A stretch of DNA of 64,000 bases from an archaeon (GCA_035291225.1 DATDSO010000004.1:41298-105297), one strand, 5' to 3'; positions 1,308 to 45,043 are shown, counted from the stretch's first letter. Numbers and translations are program-made. The notes: a model not told the origin generated them from the letters alone.

Positions 1308-1478
1308 TAATTAAAAATTTATGACTGTGTGTTTTAAGTTGCTCATTTCGTTGTACCCCGCTGCGCTTTCGCCGCTATCTAATTTCTGGCCAATTTTCTT
1401 TTTCCTATTTTCTTCTAGCATAACAAAGTCTGTAGTCTGTAAAACAAACTTTATAAATCCCTTTTGCCAAAAAAACCC

Positions 1479-20596: not shown

Positions 20597-23311
20597 ATGC
20601 CCATCGCCAAAAAAGAACTCCTCGCGCAATTCCAGCAAAACTGGAAAAAATATTGGGATTTGCAAACTCTGAAAGATTTGGATTTCAAGCGCCAGCAGTG
20701 CAAAAGCTGCAGGAAGTTTTTCTGGGCGCAAATCCAGCAGGAGAAATGCAATGATGCGAGCTGCAGGGAATATGAATTTCTAGGAAAGCCGATAACAAAA
20801 AAGAAATTTGATTATTTTTCCGCGTGGAAAAGCGCGCGGGATTTTTTTGTGAAGAACGGGCACGCCGAGCTTGAGAGATATCCGACAATCTGCAGGTGGT
20901 TCCCGCTTTATTTCACAATCGCGGGCATTGTGGATTTTTACAGAATGAGCGGAAGCAAATTTGTTTTTGAGTTTCCAAAAAATCCCGCGACTGTTCTGCA
21001 ACCTTCTCTACGCTTCAATGATATTCCGCAGGTTGGAGTTTCCGGAAGGCATTGGACTTGCCATTCGCACATTGAGCAGGCGAGCATCTGGGATGGAAAA
21101 AAAGGATACTGGAAAGAAAAATGCATTGAGCTGGATTTTGATTTGCTCACAAAAGTTTTTGGAATAAAACCTGAAAAAATAAATTTCATTGAGGACGCAT
21201 GGCTTGGGGCGGGCGCGTTTGGTTATTCTCTTGAATATCATGTTGCTGGAATTGAATTGGGCAATGCGGTTTTCACAGAATTCGCTGGAACGCCTGACAA
21301 ATTTGAAACCATGAAAGAAAAAATCATTGACATGGGAGCCGGGCTGGAAAGATTTGTATGGGTTTCGCAGGGAACTCCGACAAGCTATGATGCTGTGCTC
21401 GGGCCTGTGTTGAAAAAATTTATCAAACAGGGAAATGTTCAGTATGATGAAAAATTCTTTTTGCAGTATGCGAGAATGGCAGGAGCTTTGAATGTTGATG
21501 AGGCGCCGAATGTTGAAGCTTTGCGCGCGGAGATTGCAAGAAAACTCGGAGTGAGCAAGATTGAGCTTGAGGAAAAGATTGAGCCTATTCAGGCCATCTA
21601 TGCGATTGCAGACCACTCGCGCTGCCTGCTTTTCGCGCTTGCAGATGGGGGAATTCCTAGCAATGTCGGCGGCGGATATAATCTGCGCGTGATTTTGAGG
21701 AGGGCTTTGGGATTCATTGATAAATATAAATTTCCGTTTGATGTTGTTGATTTCTCTAGAGATGTTGCGAAATTTTTCAAGCTACAGCATCCCGAGCTTC
21801 TGAAAAACATGGAGAGGTTTGAGGAGATTATCAGAGTTGAAGAAAAGAGATACAGGGGCGGGATGGAAAGAATAAAGAAAACTGTTTCTAGTATGATTGA
21901 GAAAAATGAAAATTTTTCCGAGGAAAAGATTATTGAGCTTTATGATTCTCATGGGATTACGCCAGAAATTCTTACTGAAGTTGCAGGGCAGCGCGGGATA
22001 AAGCTGGACATCCCAATGGACTTGTATGCTCGCGTGACTGCAAAGCATGAGAAAGAAATTCCGGAGAAAAAAGATTTTGGATTTTCTGTTGAGGGCCTGC
22101 CTGAAACACGGACACTTTATTATGAGGACATGAAAGTTAAAAAATTCTCCGGGAAAGTTATTGGATTTTTCAACGGAAAATTTGTTGTGCTGGACAAAAC
22201 TTTATTTTACCCGCGCGGCGGAGGGCAGGAGCCCGACCATGGAACTTTAGGTGGGAAAAAGGTTTTGGATGCGGAAAAAATTGAAGGGGTTATTGCGCAC
22301 CATGTAGATGGAGGAAATTTCAAAATCGGGGAAAATGTTTCCGGGGAGATTGACTGGGACAGGAGATACCAGATAACTCTGCACCATGATGCGACTCATG
22401 TGATTAACGGAGCGTGCAGAAAAATTTTGGGGCCTTGGCTCTGGCAGGCGGGCTCAAAAAAAGATTCCGACAAAGCGCATATTGACATGACGCACTATGA
22501 AGCTCTCACGCCAGAACAGGCTGAAAAAATAGAAGAGCTTGCGAATTCTGTCTGCGAGAAAAATTTGAAAATTATTAAAAAAATTTACCCGCGGCAGGAG
22601 GCTGAAAAGAAATTCGGGTTTGGAATTTACCAAGGGGCTGCTGTACCTTCCGCTGAACTGAGAATTGTGGATATCGGAGGGTTTGATATTGAAGCCTGTG
22701 GTGGAACTCATGGGGACGATACAAAAGATATTTCGCCTATTATAATTACAAAAGTTGAGAGGCCGGCTGACGGAACGATTAGATTAACTTACAAAGCTGG
22801 GCCAGCTGCTAGAAAGTATTTGGAAGTTGTTGAGAAAAATTTGGAAGAGGCTGCTGGAATTTTGAAAGTGAAAAGAGAAAAAATTCCTGCGGCTGCCGAA
22901 AAGCTTGTGGCCGAGTGGAAAGAGAAAAGAAAAGAACTTGAGCAGATGCAGAGAAAAATTGCCCAGAGCTCTGCGGAAAAAATGGAGTTTGAAAATTTGC
23001 GTGGGCTGCGCATGCTCGTGAGAGAAATTTTTGGAGCAGACCCGAAGCAGTTACAGGAAATTTCTCTGAAGCTTTCTGGAGCTGATACTGTGATTGTTTT
23101 GTTCGGAACAACAAAAGAAAAAGTTTTTGTTTTCGGCTCTGCTGGCGCCACTGCGGTGAAAGCTGGAATTAATGTTGAGAAAATTGTTGCTGAAGCTTGC
23201 AAAGAGCTTGGCGGGAGAGGTGGTGGAAGAGAAGGATTGGCGCAAGGAAATGGAATTGCAACAGATAAGGTTAAAAGCCTTTGCAGCAAAATAATTGAAG
23301 GATTGAAATGA
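20597..23311 (+). CDS. alaS: Alanine--tRNA ligase (archaeal type)
   Basis: 904 aa. Editing-domain motifs (HHDATHVINGACRKILG; CGGTH) and the C-terminal DHH-like domain. Confidence 0.92.
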   Translation: MPIAKKELLAQFQQNWKKYWDLQTLKDLDFKRQQCKSCRKFFWAQIQQEKCNDASCREYEFLGKPITKKKFDYFSAWKSARDFFVKNGHAELERYPTICRWFPLYFTIAGIVDFYRMSGSKFVFEFPKNPATVLQPSLRFNDIPQVGVSGRHWTCHSHIEQASIWDGKKGYWKEKCIELDFDLLTKVFGIKPEKINFIEDAWLGAGAFGYSLEYHVAGIELGNAVFTEFAGTPDKFETMKEKIIDMGAGLERFVWVSQGTPTSYDAVLGPVLKKFIKQGNVQYDEKFFLQYARMAGALNVDEAPNVEALRAEIARKLGVSKIELEEKIEPIQAIYAIADHSRCLLFALADGGIPSNVGGGYNLRVILRRALGFIDKYKFPFDVVDFSRDVAKFFKLQHPELLKNMERFEEIIRVEEKRYRGGMERIKKTVSSMIEKNENFSEEKIIELYDSHGITPEILTEVAGQRGIKLDIPMDLYARVTAKHEKEIPEKKDFGFSVEGLPETRTLYYEDMKVKKFSGKVIGFFNGKFVVLDKTLFYPRGGGQEPDHGTLGGKKVLDAEKIEGVIAHHVDGGNFKIGENVSGEIDWDRRYQITLHHDATHVINGACRKILGPWLWQAGSKKDSDKAHIDMTHYEALTPEQAEKIEELANSVCEKNLKIIKKIYPRQEAEKKFGFGIYQGAAVPSAELRIVDIGGFDIEACGGTHGDDTKDISPIIITKVERPADGTIRLTYKAGPAARKYLEVVEKNLEEAAGILKVKREKIPAAAEKLVAEWKEKRKELEQMQRKIAQSSAEKMEFENLRGLRMLVREIFGADPKQLQEISLKLSGADTVIVLFGTTKEKVFVFGSAGATAVKAGINVEKIVAEACKELGGRGGGREGLAQGNGIATDKVKSLCSKIIEGLK

Positions 23312-23694
23312 CAGAATATGAAAATGACAGTGTTGGCTACAGTATTGAAGATGGTATTGTTACTTTCTGGGGCCCTGATAGCGGAAATATTTTTTATAGA
23401 AACACAATAACAGAGCAGCCTGTGCAAACTTACAGAGACTACACAAAAGATGGCGAGTCTGTCACGATACAATTTGTTCCTGGCTCCGAACTGGGCTATG
23501 GAGTTTTAGGCAGGTCTTTGCCAGAAGAAAATTTCGCGCAGGTTGATTATTCTTTGATTGGAGAGGCGCGCGAGCTTGTTTTGAAACATGAGCTTTGCCA
23601 CATAGAATATCCAGACTGGAGCGAGTTGCGAGTGAGAGAAGCAACTGATACTTTGGAACCGAGCGAGGTTTTAAAAAAGAGTAAATTGAAGTGA
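23308..23694 (+). CDS. Hypothetical small protein with HExxH motif
   Basis: Overlaps the alaS stop. Contains LKHELCHIEY, which could be a zinc-metallopeptidase motif. Confidence 0.35.
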   Translation: MTEYENDSVGYSIEDGIVTFWGPDSGNIFYRNTITEQPVQTYRDYTKDGESVTIQFVPGSELGYGVLGRSLPEENFAQVDYSLIGEARELVLKHELCHIEYPDWSELRVREATDTLEPSEVLKKSKLK

Positions 23695-23851
23695 TAAATT
23701 TATGAAAGATTTACGTGCAAATGAAAAAATCCTGCGAAAGGCTGCAGAAGTTTTGAACACAGAGCCAGAGCAGGTGCCGGCTGTTATTAGAAAATTTCAG
23801 AAGGAAATTGAAGAGGCTGAAAGGGAAATCAAAAAATTAAATGGTTAGAGC

Positions 23852-26560
23852 TCATTCCGCCAGATGTCCGCCGATTGCCCCGCCACCTACAAATGGAACT
23901 TCTGGCTGAACTGGAGCCTCAACCGGAGCTGAAACTTTTTCAGGCGGTTTTGATTCTTCTATTTGTGTTGCTGAAAGTCCGAGAAGTCTTGCTATGAAAG
24001 TAATTATTGAACGCAGAAGTTTTTCAACTGTGTTTACCTGCTGGCCTGTTTCTCTGGAAATCTCTTTTGTCTCGCTGATTTCTTTTCTTATCTGTTCGAG
24101 CTTTTGTAACATTTCATCCTGGCTTGATTGCTGTGGACCGCATTGCTCTTTCTCGCAGGTCTTTAGGCAGTTTTCCACAACATCTATTCCAACACCAGAA
24201 GAAATTGTTTTGCACTTTGAAATGCACTCTTTGTCAAATATTTTTGTGCATGTAGGAACTGAGCAGGATTTTTGGAAGCAGCCAGGACCGCAGGAAACTG
24301 CCTGGCAGAATTCGTCCCCTTCAATCGGCGTTGGCCGGAATTCCCTGTACTCGTATCCTTTTTCATATTTCACTTCAAGAATCTGTGTTGAATTTGAAGC
24401 TGCATATCGCGGGCTTTGCGCAGAGAGCTCCAAAACATATTTTCCTTCTGGACAGTCTGGGAGAGAAATGAATTGATTTGAATTGTATCTCTTAGTATTG
24501 TAATCCCAATAATATTCTGTTTTTTTCACACAGCCCTGCGCATCCAGCGGATGCAGATAACCGGAAAGTTTTACATTTTGGTCAGCGGCTTTTCCCAATT
24601 CATCTGTCAGCTCTGCGTAAAGCTGTATGTCAGCACCATTGCTTACCGACTTCACGCGCGCGCCGCTTTCAATATTTATTTTCTGCAAAACAACTTGGAA
24701 TTCTTTTTCAATTGAAACTTCTTCATATCCTTTCGCACCAACTTTAAGCCTTAAAACATAAGTTCCGACTGGGCATGTTTCCTGCAACCAAATTTCATCA
24801 ATGAAATATTTTTGTATAAATTGCCCCTGATAAAATATCGGGCCCTGCGGATTTGCGTATTGCTTGCACTGTTTTATTGAACTCACATATGGTGGGTAAT
24901 CGCCTGGCAGTTCCCTTGTTTCTTGTGAAAGAGGAAATACTTCTCCATTAACATAAGCGTCCGGAAGGACTTCGCCTGTGGGTGATGTAACCAGCATTTT
25001 CAGGAACATTCTGTCTCCAGGCTTGTAGGATGTTTTATCAAATTCTATCTTGATAGTTATTTTATCGCGCGTGATCTTCAGAACTTTTTCAAATGTTATT
25101 TTGTCCGGATATTTTTCCACTTTTACTTTAAGCTTGTATTCGCCTGAAGAATACCAATCCTCTATTTTTCTTTGGTCAAATTCATAAACTCCGTTTGAAT
25201 ATGTCGTTGTGAAAAACTGAACTTGCGTTCCTTCTGGGCTGACTAGCTGCGCTTCTACATAAGCATCTTTCAGCTCTACGCCAGACTGGTCAATGACTTT
25301 TATTTTTCCACGGATGTAATCTCCTGCCTTGAGGTCTGTTTTTTCTAGAGCTATATCAGCGGAAATCGCGCGCTTTTGTATTGTTACTGAAGCTGAAGCA
25401 GAGGCTTCCTGCTCTTTCCACTTTACCTTCGCATTAAATGTTAAAGTTTTCCCGACATCCTCAACTTTCGCATAGTAGTCGTACCTGTATTCATCGCCGC
25501 TTGCGTATGGGTAAGCGATTTGAACCAGAGCTCCGGTTTCATCTCGTATGTCCGCCGTCCATGAGGGTTGGATTTTATTTCCGTTTTGGTCAGTTGCTGT
25601 TATTATAAATGAAATCTTATCGTTTCCGTAATATATTTCTTTTTCAGGCTTCGCTGTTATTTTTAGTGTGGGCTTTTCAACTGTGAAAGTTTTCGTCAAG
25701 GAAACGGAGGGGTAGTTTGTTTTCGAAGCTTTCATTTCAATTGTGTAATCTCCCAAATAACTTTCTGAAAGCCACGCAGTCGCCTTATAGCAATCGCATA
25801 GGTAGGAATAAGATGGGTAAAGATAATTTTTAACAACTCCGTCCTTTTTTATTGTTCCGGAAACAGAAGCGTCCGTGACAAGCTTTCCGGTTTCATCTTT
25901 TACCGTAAGCTTGAGCTCCATGCTTTCCTGCGGGAATGTTTTTTCTTTCACTCCAGTTAAATCAGCTGTTAATTGTTTTGCTGTTGTTGTGGTTGTTGTA
26001 ACACCCGCTGTTGTTGTGGTTGTTGATGCGATGGTTGTGGTTGTTGCCTGCAAGCAAACTCCATCAGAGCACCCAGCACTGCCACAATTTACTCCTGCTA
26101 CAGAAAGCATTCCAGTTGAAGATTCACAATAAGCTTCGTTTAGTTGGGCCGAAGTTACGCAAAGATCATTGATAGTTTGATAGGATCTTATTGTCGCTCC
26201 TCTATAATTTCCAGAGCCGGTTCCTTTTACATAAATGCTGTTTCCGCCATCAGAATCCGTGCAGGCTTGGAGTGTTGTTGCGCACGCTGTTGAGGAGTAA
26301 GAGTTCCAGCAACAATATCCTGAAGTTTCAGTTATGTAACCGTTTGCATTTCCTCTGTTGCATGTGCAGCCTGCTGCAGGTATTGCTCCCTGTGAACAGC
26401 TTGCTCCAGCACTTGTGCAGTCGCTCGCGCAATTTTGTTTGGTTTCATAAAAATCGCAATAGCCGTTGCCACATGAAGATTGTGTTGTGGTTGTCTGCGC
26501 GAGAGAAATTGATGTTAATAAAAGAAACATTAAAGCTATTCCAATATAAAGCTTTCTCAT
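23852..26560 (-). CDS. Large secreted/surface protein with N-terminal Cys-rich module, Thr-rich linker and repeated beta-sandwich-like domains
   Basis: Signal peptide. Cys module CTDSDGGNSIYVKG...EAYC...CSDGVC. Poly-Thr linker. A further Cys-rich block near the C-terminus, then a hydrophobic segment. Total 902 aa. Confidence 0.55.
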   Translation of the reverse strand: MRKLYIGIALMFLLLTSISLAQTTTTQSSCGNGYCDFYETKQNCASDCTSAGASCSQGAIPAAGCTCNRGNANGYITETSGYCCWNSYSSTACATTLQACTDSDGGNSIYVKGTGSGNYRGATIRSYQTINDLCVTSAQLNEAYCESSTGMLSVAGVNCGSAGCSDGVCLQATTTTIASTTTTTAGVTTTTTTAKQLTADLTGVKEKTFPQESMELKLTVKDETGKLVTDASVSGTIKKDGVVKNYLYPSYSYLCDCYKATAWLSESYLGDYTIEMKASKTNYPSVSLTKTFTVEKPTLKITAKPEKEIYYGNDKISFIITATDQNGNKIQPSWTADIRDETGALVQIAYPYASGDEYRYDYYAKVEDVGKTLTFNAKVKWKEQEASASASVTIQKRAISADIALEKTDLKAGDYIRGKIKVIDQSGVELKDAYVEAQLVSPEGTQVQFFTTTYSNGVYEFDQRKIEDWYSSGEYKLKVKVEKYPDKITFEKVLKITRDKITIKIEFDKTSYKPGDRMFLKMLVTSPTGEVLPDAYVNGEVFPLSQETRELPGDYPPYVSSIKQCKQYANPQGPIFYQGQFIQKYFIDEIWLQETCPVGTYVLRLKVGAKGYEEVSIEKEFQVVLQKINIESGARVKSVSNGADIQLYAELTDELGKAADQNVKLSGYLHPLDAQGCVKKTEYYWDYNTKRYNSNQFISLPDCPEGKYVLELSAQSPRYAASNSTQILEVKYEKGYEYREFRPTPIEGDEFCQAVSCGPGCFQKSCSVPTCTKIFDKECISKCKTISSGVGIDVVENCLKTCEKEQCGPQQSSQDEMLQKLEQIRKEISETKEISRETGQQVNTVEKLLRSIITFIARLLGLSATQIEESKPPEKVSAPVEAPVQPEVPFVGGGAIGGHLAE

Positions 26561-26598
26561 AAAAATCTTTTGTTTTGCCTATTTAAAAAACAATATTT

Positions 26599-28071
26599 TT
26601 AAGCGGTTGTGGTTGTTGCTAAAATTGTTGCATTTGTAGCGTTGCTCGCATTCGGTATTACAATTGTATCAGCATACTGCGAGCCTTTTCCAACAAGTTT
26701 GCTGAGTAAGTCCACAAGTCCATTAATCATATCCATTCCTTTGCTAACGAGCGCAATTCCTTTTTCCAGAATTTTACCCTGTGCAATTAAGTCAATAAGA
26801 TAGCTTACATTATCAATAATTTTTGAAGCAAGCGCCGCGCCCTTTTCTGCCAAGAGCGAGCCCGCCTGCACGCACGCGCCATTTACGCAACCCGATGTAC
26901 AGTTTGCAACAAATATGGAAACATTTGTGTCAGAGCAATAAAATTCATTTAGAGTTTGGTTATTCAGACAGCCGTCAATGCTTATTTTCCCTTCGGGATC
27001 CTTGACTGTGCCAAGCTGATAAATTGAGATTCCATCATCGCTATCATTGCAGCCTGGCAAAGTTGATTGTGTTGTTTTATATGGATAGAATGTTGTTGTG
27101 GTGTAAAAAGTTGTTGTGGGCGCGAGAGTTGTAGTTGTGATTTTTGTTGTGGTTGTTGCTCTATCCTCTACGGATGGCTCCGGTTTTTCACAAAGAAATG
27201 GCTCACCCGAAAGAGCAGAATGATAGTAATATTTTACGTTGTTGTAAAACAAAACAACTCTGTAGCCGGGCACGATAGCTTGTGAATAACCAAAACCTTC
27301 TTTTGGGCAGCCGATAGCACTATCGCCCCATGTTACTTTCTGCGCGCTTTCTATTTTTATTTCACCTACAGAAATGTTAAGCCTTTTTGCTAAATCAGAT
27401 AAGGCTTGCGATTTCACTTGCTCCAAAGTTAGTGTAGGTTTAGTTGTCGTAGTTGTTGCTGCTGCAGAATATTTTACGCAAATTCTCCAAGCCCTGTAAT
27501 TTTCTGTTTCATTAAAATGGATTTCCTTGAACGCGCCAGTGTTTTCAAATCCTGTTGGGCACACATCAGGCTCAGCAAAAGAGCCTGTTTGCTCTTTGAA
27601 AATTGTTGTTGCATTTTCAATATTTCCTTTCACACAGAGCCTAAAAACATTTTGAGTCCAGTTGCCTTCGGAAAAATCCCGCTTCTCATCAAGCAAACCG
27701 ATTTCAACTAAACCCACACCACAAACAGCGGGCGCGCATTTTTTTGTTTCATTGCTTATTTTGCTTGAGCATTTGAAGGCTTTGATTTCATCTGCATTAG
27801 CAATGCAAAATTTTTGGTGGATAAATGTTTCTGTTCCATTCAACAAATATTTGTCAGAAATTACAGTTGTGCTTGCTGTGTAAAATTTTAAGCTACACTC
27901 GCTTGGCCAGCAATTTGTTGAAGAGTCTGTGCCGTTTGTCTGCAATTTTAATTTAACTTCGCCTTTTGAACCAAGAGAAATTTTTTCATCGCCGCAAATT
28001 GCAGCGGTCTGGGCAAGGGCGGGAGCGGCTAAGAAAATGAATAAAAGAAAAATTGCCAAGAGTTTTTTCAT
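26599..28071 (-). CDS. Secreted Thr-rich protein with C-terminal copy of the shared Cys module
   Basis: Signal peptide MKKLLAIFLLFIFLAAPALA. Sequons NASNATNAT. Module CNDSDDGISIYQLG...EFYC...CVNGAC. Confidence 0.55.
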   Translation of the reverse strand: MKKLLAIFLLFIFLAAPALAQTAAICGDEKISLGSKGEVKLKLQTNGTDSSTNCWPSECSLKFYTASTTVISDKYLLNGTETFIHQKFCIANADEIKAFKCSSKISNETKKCAPAVCGVGLVEIGLLDEKRDFSEGNWTQNVFRLCVKGNIENATTIFKEQTGSFAEPDVCPTGFENTGAFKEIHFNETENYRAWRICVKYSAAATTTTTKPTLTLEQVKSQALSDLAKRLNISVGEIKIESAQKVTWGDSAIGCPKEGFGYSQAIVPGYRVVLFYNNVKYYYHSALSGEPFLCEKPEPSVEDRATTTTKITTTTLAPTTTFYTTTTFYPYKTTQSTLPGCNDSDDGISIYQLGTVKDPEGKISIDGCLNNQTLNEFYCSDTNVSIFVANCTSGCVNGACVQAGSLLAEKGAALASKIIDNVSYLIDLIAQGKILEKGIALVSKGMDMINGLVDLLSKLVGKGSQYADTIVIPNASNATNATILATTTTA

Positions 28072-28151
28072 AAATAAATCTGGTTTTCCCGATTTAAAAA
28101 CCTAAAAATATACAGTGGGCTTTTTGGAAAACTTCGCGCGCCAAAAATAAA

Positions 28152-29603
28152 TTATTTCAGATTAAATATTGATTTCAGCAAAGCAATTAAATCTTGAATT
28201 AATTTCGCAAGCGGGGAAACGCACGCGCCGTCATTGCAGCCGTTCGCGCAAGTTGTTTCATGCATTGAAACTTCTCCGTCTTTGCAGTAATATTCTGTTA
28301 AATTATTTTCCGCGCAAGCATCCTCGGAAATTTTTCCATCTTTATCTGTTGCAAATCCATGAGAGTAGATTGAAATTCCTCCATCGTTGTCAGAGCATTG
28401 TGTTTGTTTTTTTCCTGCTGTTGGAGTTTCTGGAGAAGCAGGAGTTCCGCACGGCCTTGAGGATTCGCATCCGTTGACAGAATTTCCATCGCAGTCATAG
28501 TATCTTGGATTGCAAAAATTAATTACGCAGAGTCCGTTGGAATAAACCCCCATTCCGTTTGGAACCGGGCAAGTATTTGAAATTGTTGCGTTTGAAAAAA
28601 TATTTGTTGTTGTGGTTAAGTATTGAGTTGTTGCAGTTGCGTTTCCTTGGTCGCCTCGCTGAGGAGATGTTTGCGCTGGAGTTAATGGAGCTGTTGTTGC
28701 AGTTTGATTTGAAGTTGCGTTTGTTGCATTGCTCATCGCAGTTGTAGTTGTTTGCGAAAAGGTTGTTGTGGTCGGGCATGGACCCGGAGAAATCTGAGAT
28801 GCACTTGAACCGCTGCCGCAACAGACTCCTGGATCATAACCGCTCCAAGTATAATAGGCGCCACCATAAACACCAGAACCGCAGATGCATCTTGTAGTTA
28901 TTTGTGCGTTTGCTGCGCATGCGCTGGGAGGGGTTCCTGCTATGCATGCATAAACACCGCCGCCAGCTGTTGTGAAATCACAAATTTTATTTGAAGATGA
29001 ACAGTCTTCTTTAACTGCCTGAACACTCGTAGTAAAAATGCAAGTTCCAGATTGGCATGTCGGAGCTACTTTGTATTGCTCAACTTTTAAACCTGTGGAA
29101 TCGCAGAATGTTGCTCCTGCCCAAGTGGTGCCTGTTATTGCGCAATCAGAATCAGCCGAGCAGCCTGCAGTTGTTGTGGTAGTAGTCGGGGCAGCGGCTA
29201 ATGTTATTGTGCCATCGCTGTAATCATAAACATCTGCAATTGAAGCACCCCCGCAATCATTCCTGTTTGCTTTTGCGCTGCAAGTTCCGATTTTTAGTTT
29301 GTAAGTGCCGGCGTTTACATTGGTTGGGATTGTCCAGCTTGTTGTTCCGGGATTGCCAACAACATTGACTAAATTTGTAATTGAATCTCCGTAACCATAG
29401 CCGCCTGCGGCGTTTGTTAAATCTAAATAAACATAACTGACATTAGATGATGTCCATGAAATTGTAACTGTTGAGCCAATTGTCCAAGTTTCCCCGCCGT
29501 TTGGAGAAGTTACTGTAATTGATTGCGCAGCAAATGCTGGGAAAGAAAAAAATAAAAGCTGGGCTAAAGCAAGAAATAAAACAGATTTTCCTGAGAGGCA
29601 CAT
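28152..29603 (-). CDS. Secreted Thr-rich protein with N-terminal beta-sandwich domain and C-terminal shared Cys module
   Basis: Signal peptide. N-terminal ITVTSPNGGETWTIGSTVTISW motif. Sequons NATNATSNQT. Module CSDNDGGISIYSHG...EYYC...CNDGAC. Confidence 0.55.
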   Translation of the reverse strand: MCLSGKSVLFLALAQLLFFSFPAFAAQSITVTSPNGGETWTIGSTVTISWTSSNVSYVYLDLTNAAGGYGYGDSITNLVNVVGNPGTTSWTIPTNVNAGTYKLKIGTCSAKANRNDCGGASIADVYDYSDGTITLAAAPTTTTTTAGCSADSDCAITGTTWAGATFCDSTGLKVEQYKVAPTCQSGTCIFTTSVQAVKEDCSSSNKICDFTTAGGGVYACIAGTPPSACAANAQITTRCICGSGVYGGAYYTWSGYDPGVCCGSGSSASQISPGPCPTTTTFSQTTTTAMSNATNATSNQTATTAPLTPAQTSPQRGDQGNATATTQYLTTTTNIFSNATISNTCPVPNGMGVYSNGLCVINFCNPRYYDCDGNSVNGCESSRPCGTPASPETPTAGKKQTQCSDNDGGISIYSHGFATDKDGKISEDACAENNLTEYYCKDGEVSMHETTCANGCNDGACVSPLAKLIQDLIALLKSIFNLK

Positions 29604-29633
29604 GAAAAGTTATCTTAAAGCCTATTTAAAAAC

Positions 29634-30104
29634 TTAAGCGCACCCTGCGGGCTTTGCTGTAAACTGCACACAGACCTTTTGCAAAAGCTCTGCGCTTGTT
29701 GGCGCGCTTTCAATTCTATCCGAGCCTTTTCCCAAAATTATAATTGTCGGAAACTTTTCCAAGCTATTGCTTTGAATTTCGCTGTAGAAATATTTTGTGT
29801 CTATATTTTCAACAACAATATTTGAACCCAGCTTTGAGAAGAGTTTTAGAACTTCAGATTTTGCCTCACCACAGCTGTCGCAGTTTTCTGATGTGTAAAT
29901 TTTCATAATGACTTTTCCGCGGGAAATCAGATTTTGCTCATCGCTTCCGGAAAGCGGCTGGTCGTAAATCGGCTGCTCTTCTCCGCTGGTTGTGCCGCCT
30001 CCTGTAAGCGAGGAAATTATTGCAAACGCAAAACCGCTGAATACAAATGAAACTAAAATAAAAAGCGCGATAATTTGTTTTTTCTTTTGGTCCATTTCAA
30101 TCAC
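29634..30104 (-). CDS. Membrane-anchored thioredoxin-fold protein (CxxC)
   Basis: N-terminal TM helix followed by a thioredoxin-like region with CDSC (ENCDSCGEAKSEV). Confidence 0.5.
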   Translation of the reverse strand: MIEMDQKKKQIIALFILVSFVFSGFAFAIISSLTGGGTTSGEEQPIYDQPLSGSDEQNLISRGKVIMKIYTSENCDSCGEAKSEVLKLFSKLGSNIVVENIDTKYFYSEIQSNSLEKFPTIIILGKGSDRIESAPTSAELLQKVCVQFTAKPAGCA

Positions 30105-30957
30105 CCAAAATTTTGGCTGCTAGGGATTTAAGCTCTTTCAGTTTTTTAAAGTTTATATGGGTCAGGCTGCGAAGTTTTTCAATTTCAATTGAGTCAATGT
30201 CTTTCAGCAACATTAATCCGGCATCTCCAAAGCGCTGTTCATCCTCTTCACTTAAATTCGCAAGCAAAGTTATTGGATAAAGTTTTTTGCTTTCAATTAA
30301 AAACTGCAGGCTTTCGGTTTTTGGGTAGTGCCAGCCCACAAGCTTGAGCCCAGCAAAATTTGCATATTTAATTGCATCACTGGAAAATTTTGTGTTGCTC
30401 ACAAGCCACATTCCGGAAAATTCTTTTGTGCGTGCGCTTATATCCAGAAAGCGCGCCCATGTGTACATTGCCTCGTGCAGGCCTGTGAAAATTCCGGGAG
30501 CGTTGTGGTATTTTGCCTCAATCAGAAATTTCTTCCCGTCCTTTTCTGCAAGAACATCAATTTCGTGCATCACTCCTGAAGCTCCTCGGACAAACTGATC
30601 TGTCTGAAAAGAATAGCCGTGGTTGAAAAGAATTTCCCCGAAAAAAGTTTCAAAGCCAAATCCCGCCGGCCCAAGCCTTAACAAAGCTCCGGATAAATCA
30701 TAGCGGCTGGCTGCTGCTGTGTTTTCTTTTTTCAAAAGCGAGAGAACCAATTTTAAAATTTCTCTTGTGGAAATTCCATTGTAAATTTTTTTCTCTATTT
30801 CAGAGGAAATTTTTTCTGCTGTCTGTTTGGAAGCGCCTGCGCGCATGCAGGTGCGCAGGATTTTTTCTCGGTTGAAAGGCTCGGTGCTGCCTGAGGATTT
30901 GGTTACTAATATCATAGAAATTGCTTGTATAGAGCTAAATAAAAATCTGCTAATCAT
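30097..30957 (-). CDS. ATP-cone domain fused to Mrr-like PD-(D/E)xK nuclease domain
   Basis: ATP-cone-like N-terminus (ILVTKSSGSTEPFNREKILRTCMRAG...). Nuclease core HEIDVLAEKDGKKFLIEAKYH with a D...E-x-K arrangement. Confidence 0.55.
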   Translation of the reverse strand: MISRFLFSSIQAISMILVTKSSGSTEPFNREKILRTCMRAGASKQTAEKISSEIEKKIYNGISTREILKLVLSLLKKENTAAASRYDLSGALLRLGPAGFGFETFFGEILFNHGYSFQTDQFVRGASGVMHEIDVLAEKDGKKFLIEAKYHNAPGIFTGLHEAMYTWARFLDISARTKEFSGMWLVSNTKFSSDAIKYANFAGLKLVGWHYPKTESLQFLIESKKLYPITLLANLSEEDEQRFGDAGLMLLKDIDSIEIEKLRSLTHINFKKLKELKSLAAKILGD

Positions 30958-42650: not shown

Positions 42651-43823
42651 ATGCAAGAAGATTTTTACATTAGCCCAGAGCCGGAAAAATTTGCAAGAAT
42701 TAGCAAGTGGGGAGTTCCTGCGCTTTCGCCGACGGTTAATTATGGAATGGCTTTGTTTGAGGGAATGAGCATAATTGCCAGAAAAAAAGGGAGCGGCTAC
42801 AGGCTTTCGTTCTTTCATCCTATGCTGAATTATGAGCGCATGAAGTTTGGCGTTGATGAGCTTGGAATGAATGCGCCTGTTTATCCGATGGAGAGGCACA
42901 TCAAAACAGTTTTCCAAATCTGCGCGCTGAATGGATGGAACAAAAAAATCAGCCTGAATGGAAAAGAAATTTCTATTGAAAGAGCTAATGGAGAAAAATA
43001 TGCGCGAATTTATGTGCGACCTGTTGTTTACTCAACAACAAATTCAATCGGGCTTGGGGCAAAAATGGATTTCACAATAATGCACGCGCTCCTGCCTTTC
43101 GGGCAGTATTTGAAAATGGAAAATCCTGGTGGGATAAAAACTATTTTGTATCCGAAACCGCGCAGCATTCCATTTGCGAATTTCAAAATGATTTCCAATT
43201 ATCCCATCAGTATAAGCGCGCGGGGGCTTTTGAATTCTTTCAATGAGAAAAACAAATATAATGCAGAGGAAGCGGTTTTTGTGAATGAGGCTGGGGTTCT
43301 TACTGAAGGGAGCGGGGAAAATATTCTTTTGCTTAAAGATAATGAATTGATTACTCCGCCTGTTAGTGCGGGAGCTTTACCTGGGACAACTCTGAGAATC
43401 GTTTCAAAAATTGCAGAATCTCTTGGAGTGAGATTTTCTTTCAGAACTTTTTTCCCGAAAGATATTGAGAAAGCTGAAACGATGTTTTTTACTGGGAATG
43501 CAGCAGGCATGATTCCTATTGCATCAATTGCAGAAATTGATGAAAAGTTTTCTGTGAAAAAATTGCATGAAACAGAAATTGGCGGGAGAGGAGAGCTTTT
43601 CAAGAAAATAAATTCTCTGTATGAAAGCGTTGTTTTTGGAGATGACTCATTCGGAGATTTTTCTGTTTACTTTGATGATTGGATGAGTGAGGAAGAAGCG
43701 GACGAGCTTGAGAAGGAAAAGCGGGATTCTTTTTCTTTGAACATGAAAATAAATCCGCCGGAGAAATGGGAGAAACAAAAAGAATCTGTTTTGAAAGAGT
43801 TGGGGATTGGGAAGTTTTTGTGA
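42651..43823 (+). CDS. Class IV PLP-dependent aminotransferase (branched-chain aminotransferase-like) with acidic C-terminal extension
   Basis: N-terminal pattern W..P..S.....GMALFEGMSI followed by the core fold-type IV region. About 90 extra C-terminal residues. Confidence 0.55.
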   Translation: MQEDFYISPEPEKFARISKWGVPALSPTVNYGMALFEGMSIIARKKGSGYRLSFFHPMLNYERMKFGVDELGMNAPVYPMERHIKTVFQICALNGWNKKISLNGKEISIERANGEKYARIYVRPVVYSTTNSIGLGAKMDFTIMHALLPFGQYLKMENPGGIKTILYPKPRSIPFANFKMISNYPISISARGLLNSFNEKNKYNAEEAVFVNEAGVLTEGSGENILLLKDNELITPPVSAGALPGTTLRIVSKIAESLGVRFSFRTFFPKDIEKAETMFFTGNAAGMIPIASIAEIDEKFSVKKLHETEIGGRGELFKKINSLYESVVFGDDSFGDFSVYFDDWMSEEEADELEKEKRDSFSLNMKINPPEKWEKQKESVLKELGIGKFL

Positions 43824-43864
43824 TTAGATGTTTGGTTTTTAAATTTCCTTTTACAATAGTTTTA

Positions 43865-45043
43865 ATGAAGTTTGTAATTTTCCATGGAGCCTACGGGAAT
43901 CCTGAAAAGAATTGGTTCCCAGAATTAAAGGAAAGGCTTGAAATGTTTGGACAGGAAGTTATTGCTCCAAAATTTCCTGTTGAGGATTGGAATGAAGTTT
44001 CTAAGGCAGGACACGATTTCAATCCGAGAAATCAGACTCTTGAAAGCTGGATGAAGGTTTTTGATAAAGTAAAGAGCGATTTCAAGAAAGGAGAAAAGCT
44101 TTGCTTTATCGGGCACTCAATGTCGCCTGTTTTTATTTTACGTGTTGTTGAAAAATACGACCTTAAGCTTGATAGCGCGATTTTCGTTTCACCGTTTCTT
44201 GGACCTCTCGGGAATCCACGCTTTGATGTTGTAAACAAAAGCTTTTACAAAACAGATTTTGATTTTGAAAAGCTTAGGAAGCTCGTACCTGTTTCGTATG
44301 TGCTTTACTCTGAAAATGATCCCTACGTCCACGAAAAGAATTCAAAAGAGTTTGCTGAAAAAATGCATAGCTCTGTAATCTTTGTCAGAAAGGCCGGCCA
44401 TATGAACAGCGAGGTTAATTTGAACGAGTTCCCTCTTGTTCTTGAGCTTTGTAAATCGCGGCTTGATTTGTCTCTTTATCAGAAATATCTCGCACATAGA
44501 AGAGAACTTTACTCTGTTCCATATATCAATGGAAAAGGTGAAGAAATTATTTTTTTGGATCCGAAGGAGGTTTTCGAGGAGGGGGTTTTTCATTTTAGAA
44601 ATTTGAGGCAGGAAGGCTTTTGCACATTTCTTACATCACTGAAATTCTGGGATACTCAGTCAAAGTATATGGAAGAGGCGCGAAAAGCCGCAATGAGAAT
44701 AAAGCTCATAAGAGTTTTCATTATTGATAAAATATCAGATTTGAAACGATCAAATATCTTAAAACAAATAATACTTGATATGGAAGCTGGTATCAATGTT
44801 TATTTTTGCATACTTAGCCAGATAGAAGGTAAAACCGGAGAGATCGACTTTGGTATTTGGGATAATGATTATCTTTGCGCCGTGCATTATGATAAGCGTG
44901 GTGGCATAAACGAAGTTAAGCTAACAAGCCGCGCTAAAGATATCGAAGAGGCTTTAAAGTGGAAAAATATTATTCTAAAAAAAGCTGTGCGCATCAAAAG
45001 CGAAAAAGATATTAAAATATTTGTCGAAGATTTTCATCCTTAA
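43865..45043 (+). CDS. RBBP9/YdeN-type serine hydrolase fused to an uncharacterised C-terminal domain
   Basis: VIFHGAYGNPEKNWFPEL, a GHSMS nucleophile elbow, then ENDPYV (Asp) and AGHMN (His) at RBBP9-like spacing. A C-terminal domain of about 190 aa has no recognised motif. Confidence 0.6.
   Translation: MKFVIFHGAYGNPEKNWFPELKERLEMFGQEVIAPKFPVEDWNEVSKAGHDFNPRNQTLESWMKVFDKVKSDFKKGEKLCFIGHSMSPVFILRVVEKYDLKLDSAIFVSPFLGPLGNPRFDVVNKSFYKTDFDFEKLRKLVPVSYVLYSENDPYVHEKNSKEFAEKMHSSVIFVRKAGHMNSEVNLNEFPLVLELCKSRLDLSLYQKYLAHRRELYSVPYINGKGEEIIFLDPKEVFEEGVFHFRNLRQEGFCTFLTSLKFWDTQSKYMEEARKAAMRIKLIRVFIIDKISDLKRSNILKQIILDMEAGINVYFCILSQIEGKTGEIDFGIWDNDYLCAVHYDKRGGINEVKLTSRAKDIEEALKWKNIILKKAVRIKSEKDIKIFVEDFHP

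What the first reader, a model, noticed from the sequence alone, without database searches (positions are those of the whole stretch)
23852..30104. Cluster of three large secreted proteins (Cys-rich, poly-Thr, sequon-rich) sharing a novel roughly 60-aa cysteine module, plus a membrane thioredoxin-like protein
Three consecutive minus-strand genes encode signal-peptide proteins of 902, 490 and 483 aa. They carry poly-Thr linkers (TTTTT...), dense N-glycosylation sequons (NATNATSNQT, NASNATNAT) and many cysteines. All three contain one copy of a conserved module, C-x-D-S/N-D-G/D-G-I/N-S-I-Y-x-x-G ... D-x-C ... L-x-E-x-Y-C ... C-x-x-G-C-x-D-G-x-C. It sits at the N-terminus of the 902-aa protein and at the C-terminus of the other two, which suggests a shared disulfide-stabilised binding or anchoring domain. 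Immediately downstream is a membrane-anchored thioredoxin-fold CxxC protein, which could catalyse extracytoplasmic disulfide formation for them. In a small-genome archaeon this looks like a dedicated cell-surface (S-layer or adhesion/host-contact) system. The module matches nothing I recognise.
Basis: seen in the sequence. Interest (0 to 1): 0.6.

Follow-up and report, generated by a model that had tools for sequence, protein, structure and literature searches.

The report
Surface glycoproteins sharing uncharacterised six-cysteine domain
Three neighbouring genes of a small-genome archaeon encode exported, disulfide-rich, threonine-linked surface proteins that each carry one copy of a 65-residue six-cysteine domain; the domain is not unique to this genome but belongs to a very large family, absent from the domain catalogues checked, that is found in the surface proteins of ultrasmall archaea and bacteria.

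Summary
Four minus-strand genes (902, 490, 483 and 153/156 aa) are intact and under purifying selection (dN/dS 0.13-0.21 against a syntenic relative). All 76 alignable cysteines of the mature proteins are conserved. The three large proteins share only one segment, a six-cysteine module of about 65 aa.

Four acidic residues are 90-98% conserved, which suggests a Ca2+ site (inferred).

The neighbouring protein is a real outward-facing, membrane-anchored thioredoxin. However, it is translationally coupled to the upstream ATP-cone gene. Each surface-protein gene has its own identical TATA-box promoter. No thioredoxin-fold, DsbA or VKOR family recurs near module genes in 14 other genomes. A "dedicated system" is therefore only weakly supported.

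Verdict: ordinary cell-envelope glycoproteins carrying an apparently undescribed, widespread extracellular domain. Interest is moderate.

The parts
23852..26560 (-). A902: 902-aa exported mosaic protein. Order of parts: signal peptide, N-terminal Cys-rich stretch, six-Cys module, poly-Thr linker, about 550 aa of probable Ig-like beta-sandwich repeats, C-terminal 10-Cys region, coiled coil, amphipathic helix, Pro-rich tail.
   Evidence: ORF. The identical protein occurs on contigs from 31 assembly blocks; it is NCBI HLE07071.1, 'hypothetical'. It is 72.5% identical over its full length to the L005 orthologue, with dN/dS 0.13 and 32 of 32 Cys conserved.
26039..26275 (-). Six-Cys module of A902 (aa 96-174). 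It carries a 7-residue and a 2-residue insertion relative to the other two copies.
   Evidence: Alignment A1; family HMM 64.0 bits, E 6e-19.
25109..25333 (-). MG2-like Ig-type beta-sandwich segment of A902 (aa 410-484). It is the best-scoring of several weak Ig-like matches across aa 200-745.
   Evidence: Pfam MG2 E 2.1e-7, 31.7 bits against a cut-off of 32.8. Sub-threshold Big_1, CarboxypepD_reg and SdrD_B matches on segments.
26578..26590 (-). TATA-box-type promoter element TTTTTTAAATAGG. It ends 17 nt before the ATG of A902.
   Evidence: It is conserved in front of the L005 orthologue.
26599..28071 (-). B490: 490-aa exported protein. Order of parts: signal peptide, 180-aa 10-Cys N-terminal domain, Thr linker, 90-aa cassette domain (aa ~205-334, absent from the L005 orthologue), Thr linker, six-Cys module, amphipathic helical tail, NASNATNAT/TTTT end.
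   Evidence: Sequons are enriched, 15 against 4.9 expected. NCBI HLE07072.1, 'hypothetical'.
26860..27063 (-). Six-Cys module of B490 (aa 337-404).
   Evidence: Family HMM 73.5 bits, E 6e-22.
28089..28101 (-). Promoter element GTTTTTAAATCGG. It ends 17 nt before the ATG of B490.
28152..29603 (-). C483: 483-aa exported protein. Order of parts: signal peptide, Kre9_KNH Ig-like domain, Thr linker, Cys-rich middle region, Thr/sequon-rich linker, small Cys-rich segment, six-Cys module, C-terminal amphipathic helix.
   Evidence: NCBI HLE07073.1, named 'Ser-Thr-rich GPI-anchored membrane family protein', presumably because of its Kre9_KNH match.
29280..29507 (-). Kre9/KNH-like Ig-like domain of C483 (aa 33-108).
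   Evidence: Pfam PF10342 E 9.5e-7, 29.9 bits, above the cut-off of 24.6.
28212..28409 (-). Six-Cys module of C483 (aa 399-464). This is the copy that was modelled.
   Evidence: Family HMM 74.9 bits, E 2e-22. AlphaFold2 model m3a7f9117292a has pLDDT 90.7 and is all-beta.
28155..28211 (-). C-terminal amphipathic helix of C483 (SPLAKLIQDLIALLKSIFNLK). It belongs to a recurrent tail motif seen after the last module in other family members.
   Evidence: Not TM-grade by hydropathy. AKLIQDLIALLKSIFNLK is identical in the L005 orthologue. The blastp match between B490 and C483 extends into it. Similar tails occur in P0034, P0058, P0075, P0114, P0132, P0178 and P0180.
29621..29633 (-). Promoter element GTTTTTAAATAGG. 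It ends 17 nt before the ATG of C483 and starts three bases after the thioredoxin stop codon.
   Evidence: It is conserved in L005, L021 and L022.
29634..30095 (-). D153 (156 aa if the GTG at 30104 is used): membrane-anchored, outward-facing thioredoxin-fold protein. Its ATG lies one base after the TGA of the upstream ATP-cone/Mrr-like gene.
   Evidence: The AF2 model shows TM helix 3-29 plus a classical Trx fold. Foldseek finds 398 PDB hits at E 1e-3 or better; all 50 listed are thioredoxin-fold proteins, nearly all thioredoxins.
29871..29882 (-). CxxC active-site motif (CDSC) of the thioredoxin.
   Evidence: Both Cys are invariant in 12 homologues, and the motif reads C-x-[S/D]-C.
30009..30089 (-). 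N-terminal TM anchor of the thioredoxin. KKK precedes it and an acidic linker follows, so the orientation is N-in, C-out by the positive-inside rule.
   Evidence: Hydropathy 2.71; helix 3-29 in the model; sequence highly conserved.

Best explanation
**What it is.** The three genes encode Sec-exported, disulfide-cross-linked, probably glycosylated cell-envelope proteins of a small-genome (DPANN-type) archaeon. Each is a mosaic of independent globular domains strung on poly-Thr linkers.

**The shared domain.** The one domain they share is a compact all-beta unit of about 65 aa with three disulfides. Its pattern is C-x-D-[ST]-D-G-G ... G ... D-x-C ... [LV]-x-E-Y-Y-C ... C-x-x-G-C-x-[DN]-G-x-C. 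It belongs to a very large, uncurated family of extracellular domains found in DPANN archaea, Altiarchaeota and CPR bacteria. There it mostly forms tandem arrays in large surface proteins, and it also occurs alone behind a signal peptide or lipobox.

**How it probably works.**
- Shown: export signals, strictly conserved paired cysteines, family membership, predicted fold, and extracellular partner domains.
- Inferred: the conserved D8, D10, D31 and E41 (90-98% each), together with Gly residues, form a metal (probably Ca2+) site that, with the disulfides, rigidifies the module.
- Inferred: the module serves as a stable extracellular building or binding unit. In these three otherwise unrelated proteins it gives a common docking or adhesion surface.
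- Inferred: the C-terminal amphipathic helices mediate association with the membrane or envelope, or oligomerisation.

**Expression.** The three genes are separate, probably leaderless transcription units driven by one near-identical TATA-box element, so they are likely co-regulated.

**The thioredoxin.** The adjacent outward-facing membrane thioredoxin is a plausible thiol-disulfide oxidoreductase or isomerase for these roughly 39 disulfides and for other exported proteins. It is expressed with the upstream operon and is not a demonstrable dedicated partner.
For: **Real genes**
- Intact ORFs are found on many independent contigs.
- dN/dS is 0.13-0.16 against the syntenic L005 orthologues, at or below that of AlaRS (0.19).
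- 32/32, 16/16 and 28/29 aligned Cys are conserved. The one exception lies in the signal peptide. Non-Cys identity is 72-86%.
- The Cys count is even in all mature proteins.

**Export**
- All three have N-terminal signal-like segments.
- 161 of 194 family proteins also have one.

**Family**
- 5,277 clusters at E 1e-3 or better, and 148 at E 1e-30 or better, with up to 23 matched stretches.
- Of 1,022 aligned copies, 1,007 have all six Cys. Conservation is D8 90%, D10 97%, G12 92%, G19 94%, D31 98%, E41 97% and G63 95%. Cys4 and Cys6 are lost together in 8 copies, which points to a C4-C6 disulfide.

**Fold**
- AF2 gives pLDDT 90.7 and pTM 0.76, all-beta.

**Taxonomy**
- Named loci are Woese-, Pace-, Micr- and Nanoarchaeota, GW2011_AR19, Parcubacteria and Magasanikiibacteriota.
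- Named proteins come from Altiarchaeota, Bilamarchaeum, Micrarchaeota and Nanoarchaeia.

**Extracellular partner domains**
- S_layer_C 5 of 42 members, Kre9_KNH 3, PKD 2, CARDB 2, PG_binding_1 2, Dockerin 1, MG2 1.
- Glycosyltransferases and sugar epimerases are the commonest neighbours in 14 other loci.

**Promoter**
- GTTTTTAAAT[AC]GG gives 3 hits at one mismatch or fewer, against 0.39 expected. All three end 17 nt before the three ATGs.
- The element is conserved in orthologous loci.

**Thioredoxin**
-.
- The gene order ATP-cone, Trx, Kre9_KNH protein is conserved in L005 and L020-L022.
Against: - There is no direct evidence of expression, glycosylation, localisation, metal binding or ligand.
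- Signal peptides were judged by eye and hydropathy only.
- Sequon enrichment holds for B490 alone.
- None of the three proteins has a recognised anchor: no TM segment, PGF-CTERM or S_layer domain. They could therefore be released rather than surface-bound.
- Tandem arrays in the best-scoring relatives fit a passive spacer as well as a binding unit.
- The Ca2+ site is inferred from conservation alone. Model coordinates could not be inspected.
- The taxonomic picture rests on 15 named loci and a handful of named proteins.
Confidence: 0.7

Rival explanations
1. One reading: a dedicated four-gene surface system in which the membrane thioredoxin specifically forms the disulfides of the three module proteins, and the module is their common anchoring domain.
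For: - The genes are adjacent and on the same strand.
- The Trx is outward-facing, with invariant CxxC and cis-Pro.
- The order Trx then C483-like gene is kept in L005 and L020-L022. In L005 it is kept even though an extra ORF separates Trx from the ATP-cone gene.
- The three proteins hold about 78 conserved Cys.
- There is a precedent in CPR bacteria and Gram-positives: membrane-bound MdbA-like oxidoreductases are proposed to fold exported pilins (PMC6744442).
Against: - The Trx ATG lies one base after the stop of the ATP-cone/Mrr-like gene, and the gene has no TATA motif of its own. Each surface gene has its own identical promoter.
- Synteny is seen only among close relatives at 65% identity or more, where it carries little weight.
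- In 14 other module loci there is no D156 homologue, and no Thioredoxin, DsbA or VKOR family is among the recurrent neighbours.
- No DsbB, VKOR or CcdA-like partner was found among the window ORFs that were checked.
- The fold is a classical thioredoxin without the DsbA helical insert. Among exported Trx-like proteins that form is more often a reductant or isomerase (own knowledge: ResA, CcmG, TlpA).
Confidence: 0.25
2. One or more of the three proteins (most plausibly A902, with its array of Ig-like domains) is the S-layer protein of this archaeon.
For: - S_layer_C (PF05124) is the commonest Pfam partner of the module elsewhere, in 5 of 42 members including P0023.
- The proteins have strong-looking private TATA promoters, Thr linkers and sequons.
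- B490 and C483 are unusually well conserved for surface proteins: 84-87% identical, against 67% for AlaRS.
Against: - None of the three proteins has an S_layer_N, S_layer_C or any other S-layer family match.
- None has a membrane anchor.
- No lattice-forming evidence exists. A902 matches MG2 only below the cut-off.
Confidence: 0.15
3. The 'module' is chance similarity between cysteine-rich, low-complexity sequences, or the ORFs are decaying pseudogenes.
For: The regions are rich in Thr, Ser and Cys, which can inflate similarity scores.
Against: - Pairwise blastp E-values reach 3.5e-14.
- Family HMM E-values are 1e-19 to 1e-22, and the HMM hits only these three ORFs in the window.
- Thousands of homologues share the same six-Cys register.
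- The fold prediction is confident.
- dN/dS is 0.13-0.16 with full Cys conservation.
- Identical proteins occur on 18-28 contigs.
Confidence: 0.01

Closest known systems
Small Ca2+-binding, three-disulfide extracellular modules such as LDL-receptor class A repeats and Ca-binding EGF-like domains (comparison from my own knowledge)
   Same: - About 40-70 aa with six conserved Cys.
- A cluster of conserved Asp and Glu.
- Used singly or in long tandem arrays in extracellular mosaic proteins.
   Different: - No sequence relationship: no Pfam hit even at E up to 10.
- The predicted structure is beta-rich, with a long central hairpin.
- Metal binding was not tested.
- The distribution is prokaryotic (DPANN and CPR).
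PKD, CARDB, Big and Kre9_KNH Ig-like repeats of archaeal and bacterial surface proteins
   Same: - The same architectural role as repeated extracellular units.
- They co-occur with the module in the same proteins.
- C483 itself carries a Kre9_KNH domain.
   Different: - Those are beta-sandwiches of 80-100 aa, usually without disulfides.
- The module is smaller and disulfide-dependent.
- None of their Pfam models matches it.
Membrane-anchored extracytoplasmic thiol-disulfide oxidoreductases: MdbA and BdbD (oxidants), ResA, CcmG and TlpA (reductants). An MdbA-like family, fam000318, is enriched in CPR bacteria (PMC6744442).
   Same: - D153 has an N-terminal membrane anchor, an outward-facing thioredoxin fold, CxxC and cis-Pro.
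- It sits next to genes for Cys-rich exported proteins.
   Different: - It is a classical short Trx fold with no DsbA-type helical insertion.
- It matches the Pfam Thioredoxin model only below the cut-off (21.8 against 23.5 bits).
- The CxxC dipeptide is x-[S/D], and there is an extra invariant Cys pair at the C-terminus.
- No VKOR, DsbB or CcdA partner was seen in the window.
- The family was detected only in a narrow clade.
Haloarchaeal-type S-layer glycoproteins with Thr-rich O-glycosylated stretches and N-glycan sequons (own knowledge)
   Same: - Signal peptide.
- Thr-rich runs next to sequon clusters such as NATNATSNQT and NASNATNAT.
   Different: - No S-layer domain match and no C-terminal TM or PGF-CTERM anchor.
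- High cysteine content, which is unusual for classical S-layer proteins.
Chitin-binding CBM14/Avr4-type and cyanovirin-type small disulfide-rich lectin folds

Membership tests
Six-Cys 'CxDxDGG...EYYC...GCxDGxC' extracellular module family (uncurated; defined here by the profile) | Six cysteines in the conserved register (profile columns 6, 33, 44, 56, 60 and 65) | tested here: met
   All three window copies have all six. So do 1,007 of 1,022 family copies.
Six-Cys 'CxDxDGG...EYYC...GCxDGxC' extracellular module family (uncurated; defined here by the profile) | Conserved D8, D10, G12, G19, D31, E41 and G63 | tested here: met
   These columns are invariant in the three window copies and 90-98% conserved across the family.
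Six-Cys 'CxDxDGG...EYYC...GCxDGxC' extracellular module family (uncurated; defined here by the profile) | Significant score against a family HMM built from other organisms' copies | tested here: met
   64.0, 73.5 and 74.9 bits, E 6e-19 to 2e-22.
Six-Cys 'CxDxDGG...EYYC...GCxDGxC' extracellular module family (uncurated; defined here by the profile) | Extracytoplasmic context (signal peptide, TM segment or lipobox at the N-terminus) | tested here: met
   All three window proteins have one, as do 161 of 194 family proteins. This rests on hydropathy and inspection only; no dedicated predictor was used.
Dockerin (PF00404) | Match to the duplicated EF-hand-like Ca-binding segment profile | tested here: not met
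   No Dockerin_1 hit on the modules or their consensus at E up to 10. Dockerin occurs as a separate domain in 1 of 42 family members.
PKD, cohesin or other curated extracellular repeat families (Pfam-A, NCBIfam) | Profile match over the module | tested here: not met
   No family covers the module in the window proteins, in 10 multi-copy relatives or in the consensus.
Thioredoxin fold superfamily (D153) | Trx fold with CxxC at the N-terminus of helix 1 and a cis-Pro loop | tested here: met
   - The AF2 model has pLDDT of roughly 83-92 per 10-residue block over aa 41-153.
- Foldseek finds 398 PDB hits at E 1e-3 or better; the listed hits are thioredoxin-fold proteins, with TM-score up to 0.85 on the target.
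- CxxC and F-P-T are invariant in 12 homologues.
Pfam Thioredoxin PF00085 / NCBIfam MJ0307-family thioredoxin TIGR00411 (D153) | Score at or above the curated cut-off | tested here: not met
   PF00085 scores 21.8 bits against 23.5. TIGR00411 scores 25.1 against 92.75. Eight of the 11 homologues other than the window protein carry a precomputed PF00085 hit.
DsbA/MdbA/BdbD-type disulfide oxidase (D153) | Alpha-helical insertion domain in the Trx fold, and a DsbB or VKOR re-oxidising partner | tested here: not met
   The secondary structure shows a plain Trx fold of about 100 aa with no insertion, and the top structural hits are thioredoxins. No VKOR/DsbB-like gene was found among the window ORFs examined. 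The rest of the genome was not available.
Archaeal S-layer protein families (S_layer_N PF05123, S_layer_C PF05124) | Profile match in the three window proteins | tested here: not met
   No hit at E up to 1. S_layer_C is present in 5 of 42 other module proteins.
Kre9/KNH-like Ig-like domain PF10342 (N-terminus of C483) | Score at or above the gathering threshold | tested here: met
   29.9 bits against 24.6, aa 33-108.
MG2 / alpha-2-macroglobulin-type Ig-like domain PF01835 (A902) | Score at or above the gathering threshold | tested here: inconclusive
   31.7 bits against 32.8 for the whole protein. On isolated segments it scores 20.7 and 16.4 bits.

The most novel reading that the evidence does not exclude
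The six-Cys module is a new fold. It forms a Ca2+-dependent binding unit for host surfaces or glycans and has been exchanged between DPANN archaea and CPR bacteria, giving the two groups of ultrasmall episymbionts a common attachment tool. In this archaeon, three co-regulated proteins present the module on different scaffolds, held at the envelope by a previously unrecognised C-terminal amphipathic helix signal. They are oxidised outside the cell by a clade-specific membrane thioredoxin, in an anoxic organism that probably lacks quinones. That would point to an unknown route of extracytoplasmic disulfide formation.
Probability: 0.12. Interest if true: 0.7.

Novelty: new variant of a known kind. 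Interest (0 to 1): 0.4.

Why it matters
DPANN archaea and CPR bacteria live attached to other cells, and how they make contact is largely unknown. This domain has the following properties:
- It is present in more than 5,000 protein clusters.
- Named hits come from these lineages.
- It is always found in an extracellular context, often in very large surface proteins.
- It is missing from Pfam, NCBIfam and the PDB, and its confidently predicted fold has no solved counterpart.

That makes it a concrete, clonable target of about 65 aa for structural and binding studies, and a useful new profile for annotating 'hypothetical' surface proteins. The locus also offers a compact case for asking how small-genome anaerobic archaea oxidise dozens of extracellular cysteines. 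As a gene cluster it is otherwise ordinary: a set of envelope glycoprotein genes.

Tried and rejected
- **Word-indexed homology search.** With the three-copy alignment it gave only one hit. With 65 diverse copies it returned only short single-module proteins. The exhaustive profile search was needed to see the family.
- **Genome scan with the diverse alignment A2.** The scan with A1 is biased towards the window's own motif variant and returned 15 loci. The window's own genome was not among them.
- **AFDB Foldseek library.** It was unavailable, so the model was compared only with the PDB.
- **Viral contigs.** No relative was found.
- **Literature.** 'CTDSDGG' and combinations of DPANN, cysteine-rich, surface and disulfide terms found no description of the domain. 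Only the CPR MdbA/VKOR precedent was useful.
- **Sigma-70 promoter and terminator scan.** It does not apply to an archaeon and was disregarded. Upstream regions were read directly instead.
- **Pfam on isolated segments of the three proteins.** It gave only sub-threshold Ig-like or spurious hits. PDB sequence searches with the full proteins gave nothing, apart from weak coiled-coil similarity at A902 aa 811-885.
- **Internal repeats.** The A902 self-blastp returned no internal repeat pairs. The idea of repeated Ig-like domains rests on weak Pfam hits and inspection.
- **D156 homologues near other module genes.** None was found.
- **Rejected ideas.** Dockerin, cohesin or PKD identity; chance similarity; pseudogenes; lipoprotein anchoring, since no lipobox precedes the first Cys in any of the three proteins.

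Full report
**1. What is in the sequence**

- A902, 23852-26560
- B490, 26599-28071
- C483, 28152-29603
- a 156-aa ORF, 29634-30104, from a GTG start

Public gene calls start the last one at the ATG at 30095, giving 153 aa.

G+C content (0.41-0.43) does not differ from the rest of the window.

Each large protein begins with a hydrophobic segment that ends in an AxA-type site. None has any other TM-grade segment. These calls rest on hydropathy and inspection only.

Composition:
- Cysteine counts are 32, 18 and 29. One Cys of C483 is in the signal peptide, so every mature protein has an even number.
- Poly-Thr runs of 4-6 separate the Cys-containing blocks.
- Against composition-matched shuffles only B490 is sequon-enriched (15 against 4.9 expected, P=0.0005). 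C483 has 7 against 7.3 expected, and A902 has one.

**2. The shared module is real**

- The only blastp similarity among the three proteins is the module (E 1.7e-7, 7.8e-4 and 3.5e-14). Between B490 and C483 the match runs on into the helix that follows the module.
- The three copies share 20 invariant columns, including six Cys.
- In a six-frame scan of the whole window, a family HMM hits only these three ORFs (E 6e-19 to 2e-22).

**3. These are genes, not pseudogenes**

- The identical A902 protein is found on contigs from 31 assembly blocks, including a 360-kb JGI contig and contigs up to 873,710 bp.
- The NCBI records are HLE07071.1 to HLE07074.1 from a MAG labelled only 'archaeon'. Three are 'hypothetical'. 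C483 is named 'Ser-Thr-rich GPI-anchored membrane family protein', presumably because of its N-terminal Kre9_KNH Ig-like domain.
- A related uncultured archaeon (L005, CAZROS010000007.1) has the same order: Trx-like gene, C483-like, B490-like, A902-like, then a convergent AlaRS.
- Orthologue identity is 73-87%, and dN/dS is 0.13, 0.13, 0.16 and 0.21, against 0.19 for AlaRS.
- Every aligned Cys of the mature proteins is conserved (32/32, 16/16, 28/28 and 4/4), while other positions are 72-86% identical.
- The orthologues differ by whole-domain insertions or deletions flanked by Thr linkers. B490 has a 2-Cys cassette of roughly 130 aa (aa ~205-334, a ~90-aa domain plus Thr linkers) that L005 lacks. 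The L005 C483-like protein has an extra insert of about 100 aa. This is the behaviour expected of mosaic proteins.

**4. The module belongs to a very large, uncurated family**

- A profile of just the three copies, run exhaustively against 1.84 billion representative proteins, found 5,277 clusters at E 1e-3 or better, 1,550 at 1e-10 or better and 148 at 1e-30 or better. Up to 23 stretches matched per protein.
- In the best 150 proteins a re-built HMM finds 1,093 copies, 3-25 per protein.
- Of 1,022 full-length copies, 1,007 have all six Cys.
- Conservation is D8 90% (otherwise Glu), D10 97%, G12 92%, G19 94%, D31 98%, E41 97% and G63 95%.
- Cys4 and Cys6 are replaced together in eight copies, which indicates a C4-C6 disulfide.
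- The consensus is CTDSDGGKNYYVKGTVTDKSGKTYTDSCSDSNTLREYYCSGGNVSSETYTCPNGCSDGACV.
- There are also many small proteins that consist only of a signal peptide, TM segment or lipobox followed by one module.

Named members and loci:
- Woesearchaeota, Pacearchaeota, Micrarchaeota (including Ca. Bilamarchaeum), Nanoarchaeota/Nanoarchaeia, GW2011_AR19 and Altiarchaeota
- two CPR bacteria (Parcubacteria and Magasanikiibacteriota)

Every source name is 'hypothetical' or 'uncharacterised', except one JGI label, 'uncharacterized protein YceK'.

**5. Comparison with what is curated or solved**

- No Pfam-A or NCBIfam model covers the module. This holds for the window proteins, for ten multi-copy relatives, and for the consensus at E up to 10.
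- Profiles A1 and A2 find no PDB sequence with E below 0.86.
- An AlphaFold2 model of the C483 copy, built with a 47-sequence alignment, is confident (pLDDT 90.7, pTM 0.76). It is all-beta, with a long central hairpin over LTEYYC...EVSMHETT.
- The AFDB library was not available.
- Full-text searches found no paper that describes the motif.

Within the resources I could query, the domain is undescribed. I cannot exclude a description elsewhere.

**6. Context of the family**

- Among 42 relatives rich in non-module sequence, the Pfam partners are all extracellular or envelope domains. They are S_layer_C (5), Kre9_KNH (3), PKD (2), CARDB (2), PG_binding_1 (2), Mucin2_WxxW (2), MopE-type metal motif (2), Dockerin (1) and MG2 (1).
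- The same Kre9_KNH and MG2-like partners occur in C483 and A902.
- 161 of 194 family proteins have an N-terminal hydrophobic segment.
- In 14 other module-bearing genomic loci the most recurrent neighbouring families are glycosyltransferases (GT1/GT4 and GT2) and sugar epimerases or dehydratases. This was not tested for enrichment against a background.
- No viral relative was found.

**7. The thioredoxin-like neighbour**

- D153 has a conserved N-terminal TM helix preceded by KKK and followed by an acidic linker, so the catalytic domain should face outward (positive-inside rule).
- The AF2 model shows helix 3-29 followed by a plain thioredoxin fold. All 50 listed Foldseek hits are thioredoxin-fold proteins, nearly all thioredoxins, out of 398 with E 1e-3 or better.
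- The CxxC motif (C-x-[S/D]-C), the cis-Pro motif F-P-T and an additional C-terminal Cys pair are invariant in 12 homologues.
- Sequence models only reach sub-threshold scores.
- The detectable family is a narrow clade at 65% identity or more. In all four contexts examined the order ATP-cone protein, Trx, Kre9_KNH protein is kept.

**8. Transcription units**

Upstream regions were read on the coding strand.
- Each of the three large genes is preceded by GTTTTTAAAT[A/C]GG (TTTTTTAAATAGG for A902), ending exactly 17 nt before the ATG.
- At one mismatch or fewer the motif occurs three times in 64 kb, only at these sites, against 0.39 expected.
- It is conserved before the orthologous genes in L005, L021 and L022, and before the second surface gene in L020.
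- The TTTAAAT core, about 23 nt upstream of the ATG, fits an archaeal TATA box driving leaderless mRNAs. This is an inference from established archaeal promoter geometry.
- The thioredoxin gene has no such element. Its ATG follows the TGA of the upstream ATP-cone/Mrr_cat/AF1548-like gene by one base, which implies co-translation with that operon.

The locus is therefore three co-regulated monocistronic surface-protein genes placed downstream of, but not in the same unit as, the thioredoxin.

**9. Interpretation**

*Shown:*
- The proteins are exported, selected mosaic proteins with strictly conserved paired cysteines.
- They carry one copy each of a widespread extracellular domain.
- They lie next to an outward-facing membrane thioredoxin.
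- They share a promoter element.

*Inferred:*
- The cysteines form disulfides, and the acidic tetrad forms a Ca2+ site that stiffens the module. The analogy is with LDL-A or cbEGF-type modules, from my own knowledge.
- The module acts as a stable building or binding unit. Proteins that consist of a single module argue that it has a function of its own, whereas tandem arrays argue for a spacer role.
- The Thr linkers and B490 sequons are glycosylated.
- The thioredoxin helps oxidise or isomerise these and other exported proteins.

It is weakened by the family-wide architecture, by the promoter layout, and by the absence of recurrent thioredoxin-fold neighbours at other module loci.

**10. Unexplained**

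- Many family proteins, including all three here, end in a short amphipathic tail soon after the last module or linker. In A902 the module is N-terminal and the tail lies near the C-terminus. The tail has the form [IL][IL]xx[IL][IL]xx[LF][FL]G. Examples are C483 LAKLIQDLIALLKSIFNLK, P0114 DIISQIISFFANLFG and P0058 GIIERIIRWLNG. It is not hydrophobic enough for a TM helix. It may be an anchoring, sorting or oligomerisation signal. This was not tested statistically.
- B490, C483 and the Trx gene have roughly half the synonymous divergence of the flanking A902 and AlaRS genes (dS 0.65-0.76 against 1.26-1.39). This could reflect recombination or codon constraints.

**11. Verdict**

The cluster is an ordinary set of envelope glycoprotein genes. 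The noteworthy item is the domain, which is abundant, extracellular, found in DPANN and CPR organisms, and missing from Pfam, NCBIfam and the PDB. Interest is 0.4. Novelty is 'new variant of a known kind': a disulfide-rich extracellular repeat domain whose family appears undescribed and whose fold may be new.

Noticed in passing
window 6023-9631 (+): The 1,202-aa leucyl-tRNA synthetase carries a Pfam Ser_hydrolase (PF06821) match at aa 590-749 (E 5e-15), directly after the editing domain (aa 443-589). This looks like an alpha/beta-hydrolase domain inserted in an aminoacyl-tRNA synthetase. A second Ser_hydrolase protein lies at 43766-45043 (+).
   Followed up: no
window 28155-28211, 26599-26860 and 23852-24100 (-); also P0034, P0058, P0075, P0114, P0132, P0178 and P0180: There is a recurrent short amphipathic C-terminal tail of the form [IL][IL]xx[IL][IL]xx[LF][FL]G, usually after the last six-Cys module, in the window proteins and in unrelated family members. 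It is not TM-grade and may be an anchoring, sorting or oligomerisation signal.
   Followed up: partly
window 26578-26590, 28089-28101 and 29621-29633 (-): A near-identical 13-nt TATA-box element, GTTTTTAAAT[AC]GG, ends exactly 17 nt before the ATG of each of the three surface-protein genes. These are its only occurrences in the window at one mismatch or fewer, and it is conserved in orthologous loci. It implies leaderless, co-regulated transcripts.
   Followed up: yes
window 20597-30104 compared with L005: Synonymous divergence is uneven across the syntenic block: dS is 0.65-0.76 for B490, C483 and the Trx gene, but 1.26-1.39 for the flanking A902 and AlaRS genes. The surface proteins B490 and C483 (84-87% aa identity) are better conserved than AlaRS (67%).
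   Followed up: no
window 27072-27460 (-) (B490 aa ~205-334); L005 4706-6397: Orthologues differ by whole domain cassettes bounded by poly-Thr linkers. B490 has a 2-Cys cassette of roughly 130 aa (a ~90-aa domain...VTWGDSAIGCPKEGFGYSQAIVPGYRVVLFYNN..., plus Thr linkers) that the L005 orthologue lacks. The L005 C483-like protein has an extra Cys-containing insert of about 100 aa. Neither cassette matches Pfam.
   Followed up: partly
window 1464-3236 (+): This is another probable exported Cys-rich protein: 590 aa, a signal-like N-terminus (LLLSALAFFILASPAFAF), 14 Cys and one later hydrophobic segment. It has no Pfam family and no six-Cys module.
   Followed up: no
window 23308-23694 (+): A 128-aa ORF overlaps the AlaRS stop codon by 4 nt and contains an HExxH motif (HELCH). 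It has no Pfam match and is called as a gene in all public contigs.
   Followed up: no
window 30097-30957 (-): The gene translationally coupled to the thioredoxin combines an ATP-cone domain with an Mrr_cat restriction-endonuclease-like core and an AF1548-like C-terminal domain. The pairing of this protein with the membrane thioredoxin is conserved in L020-L022.
   Followed up: partly
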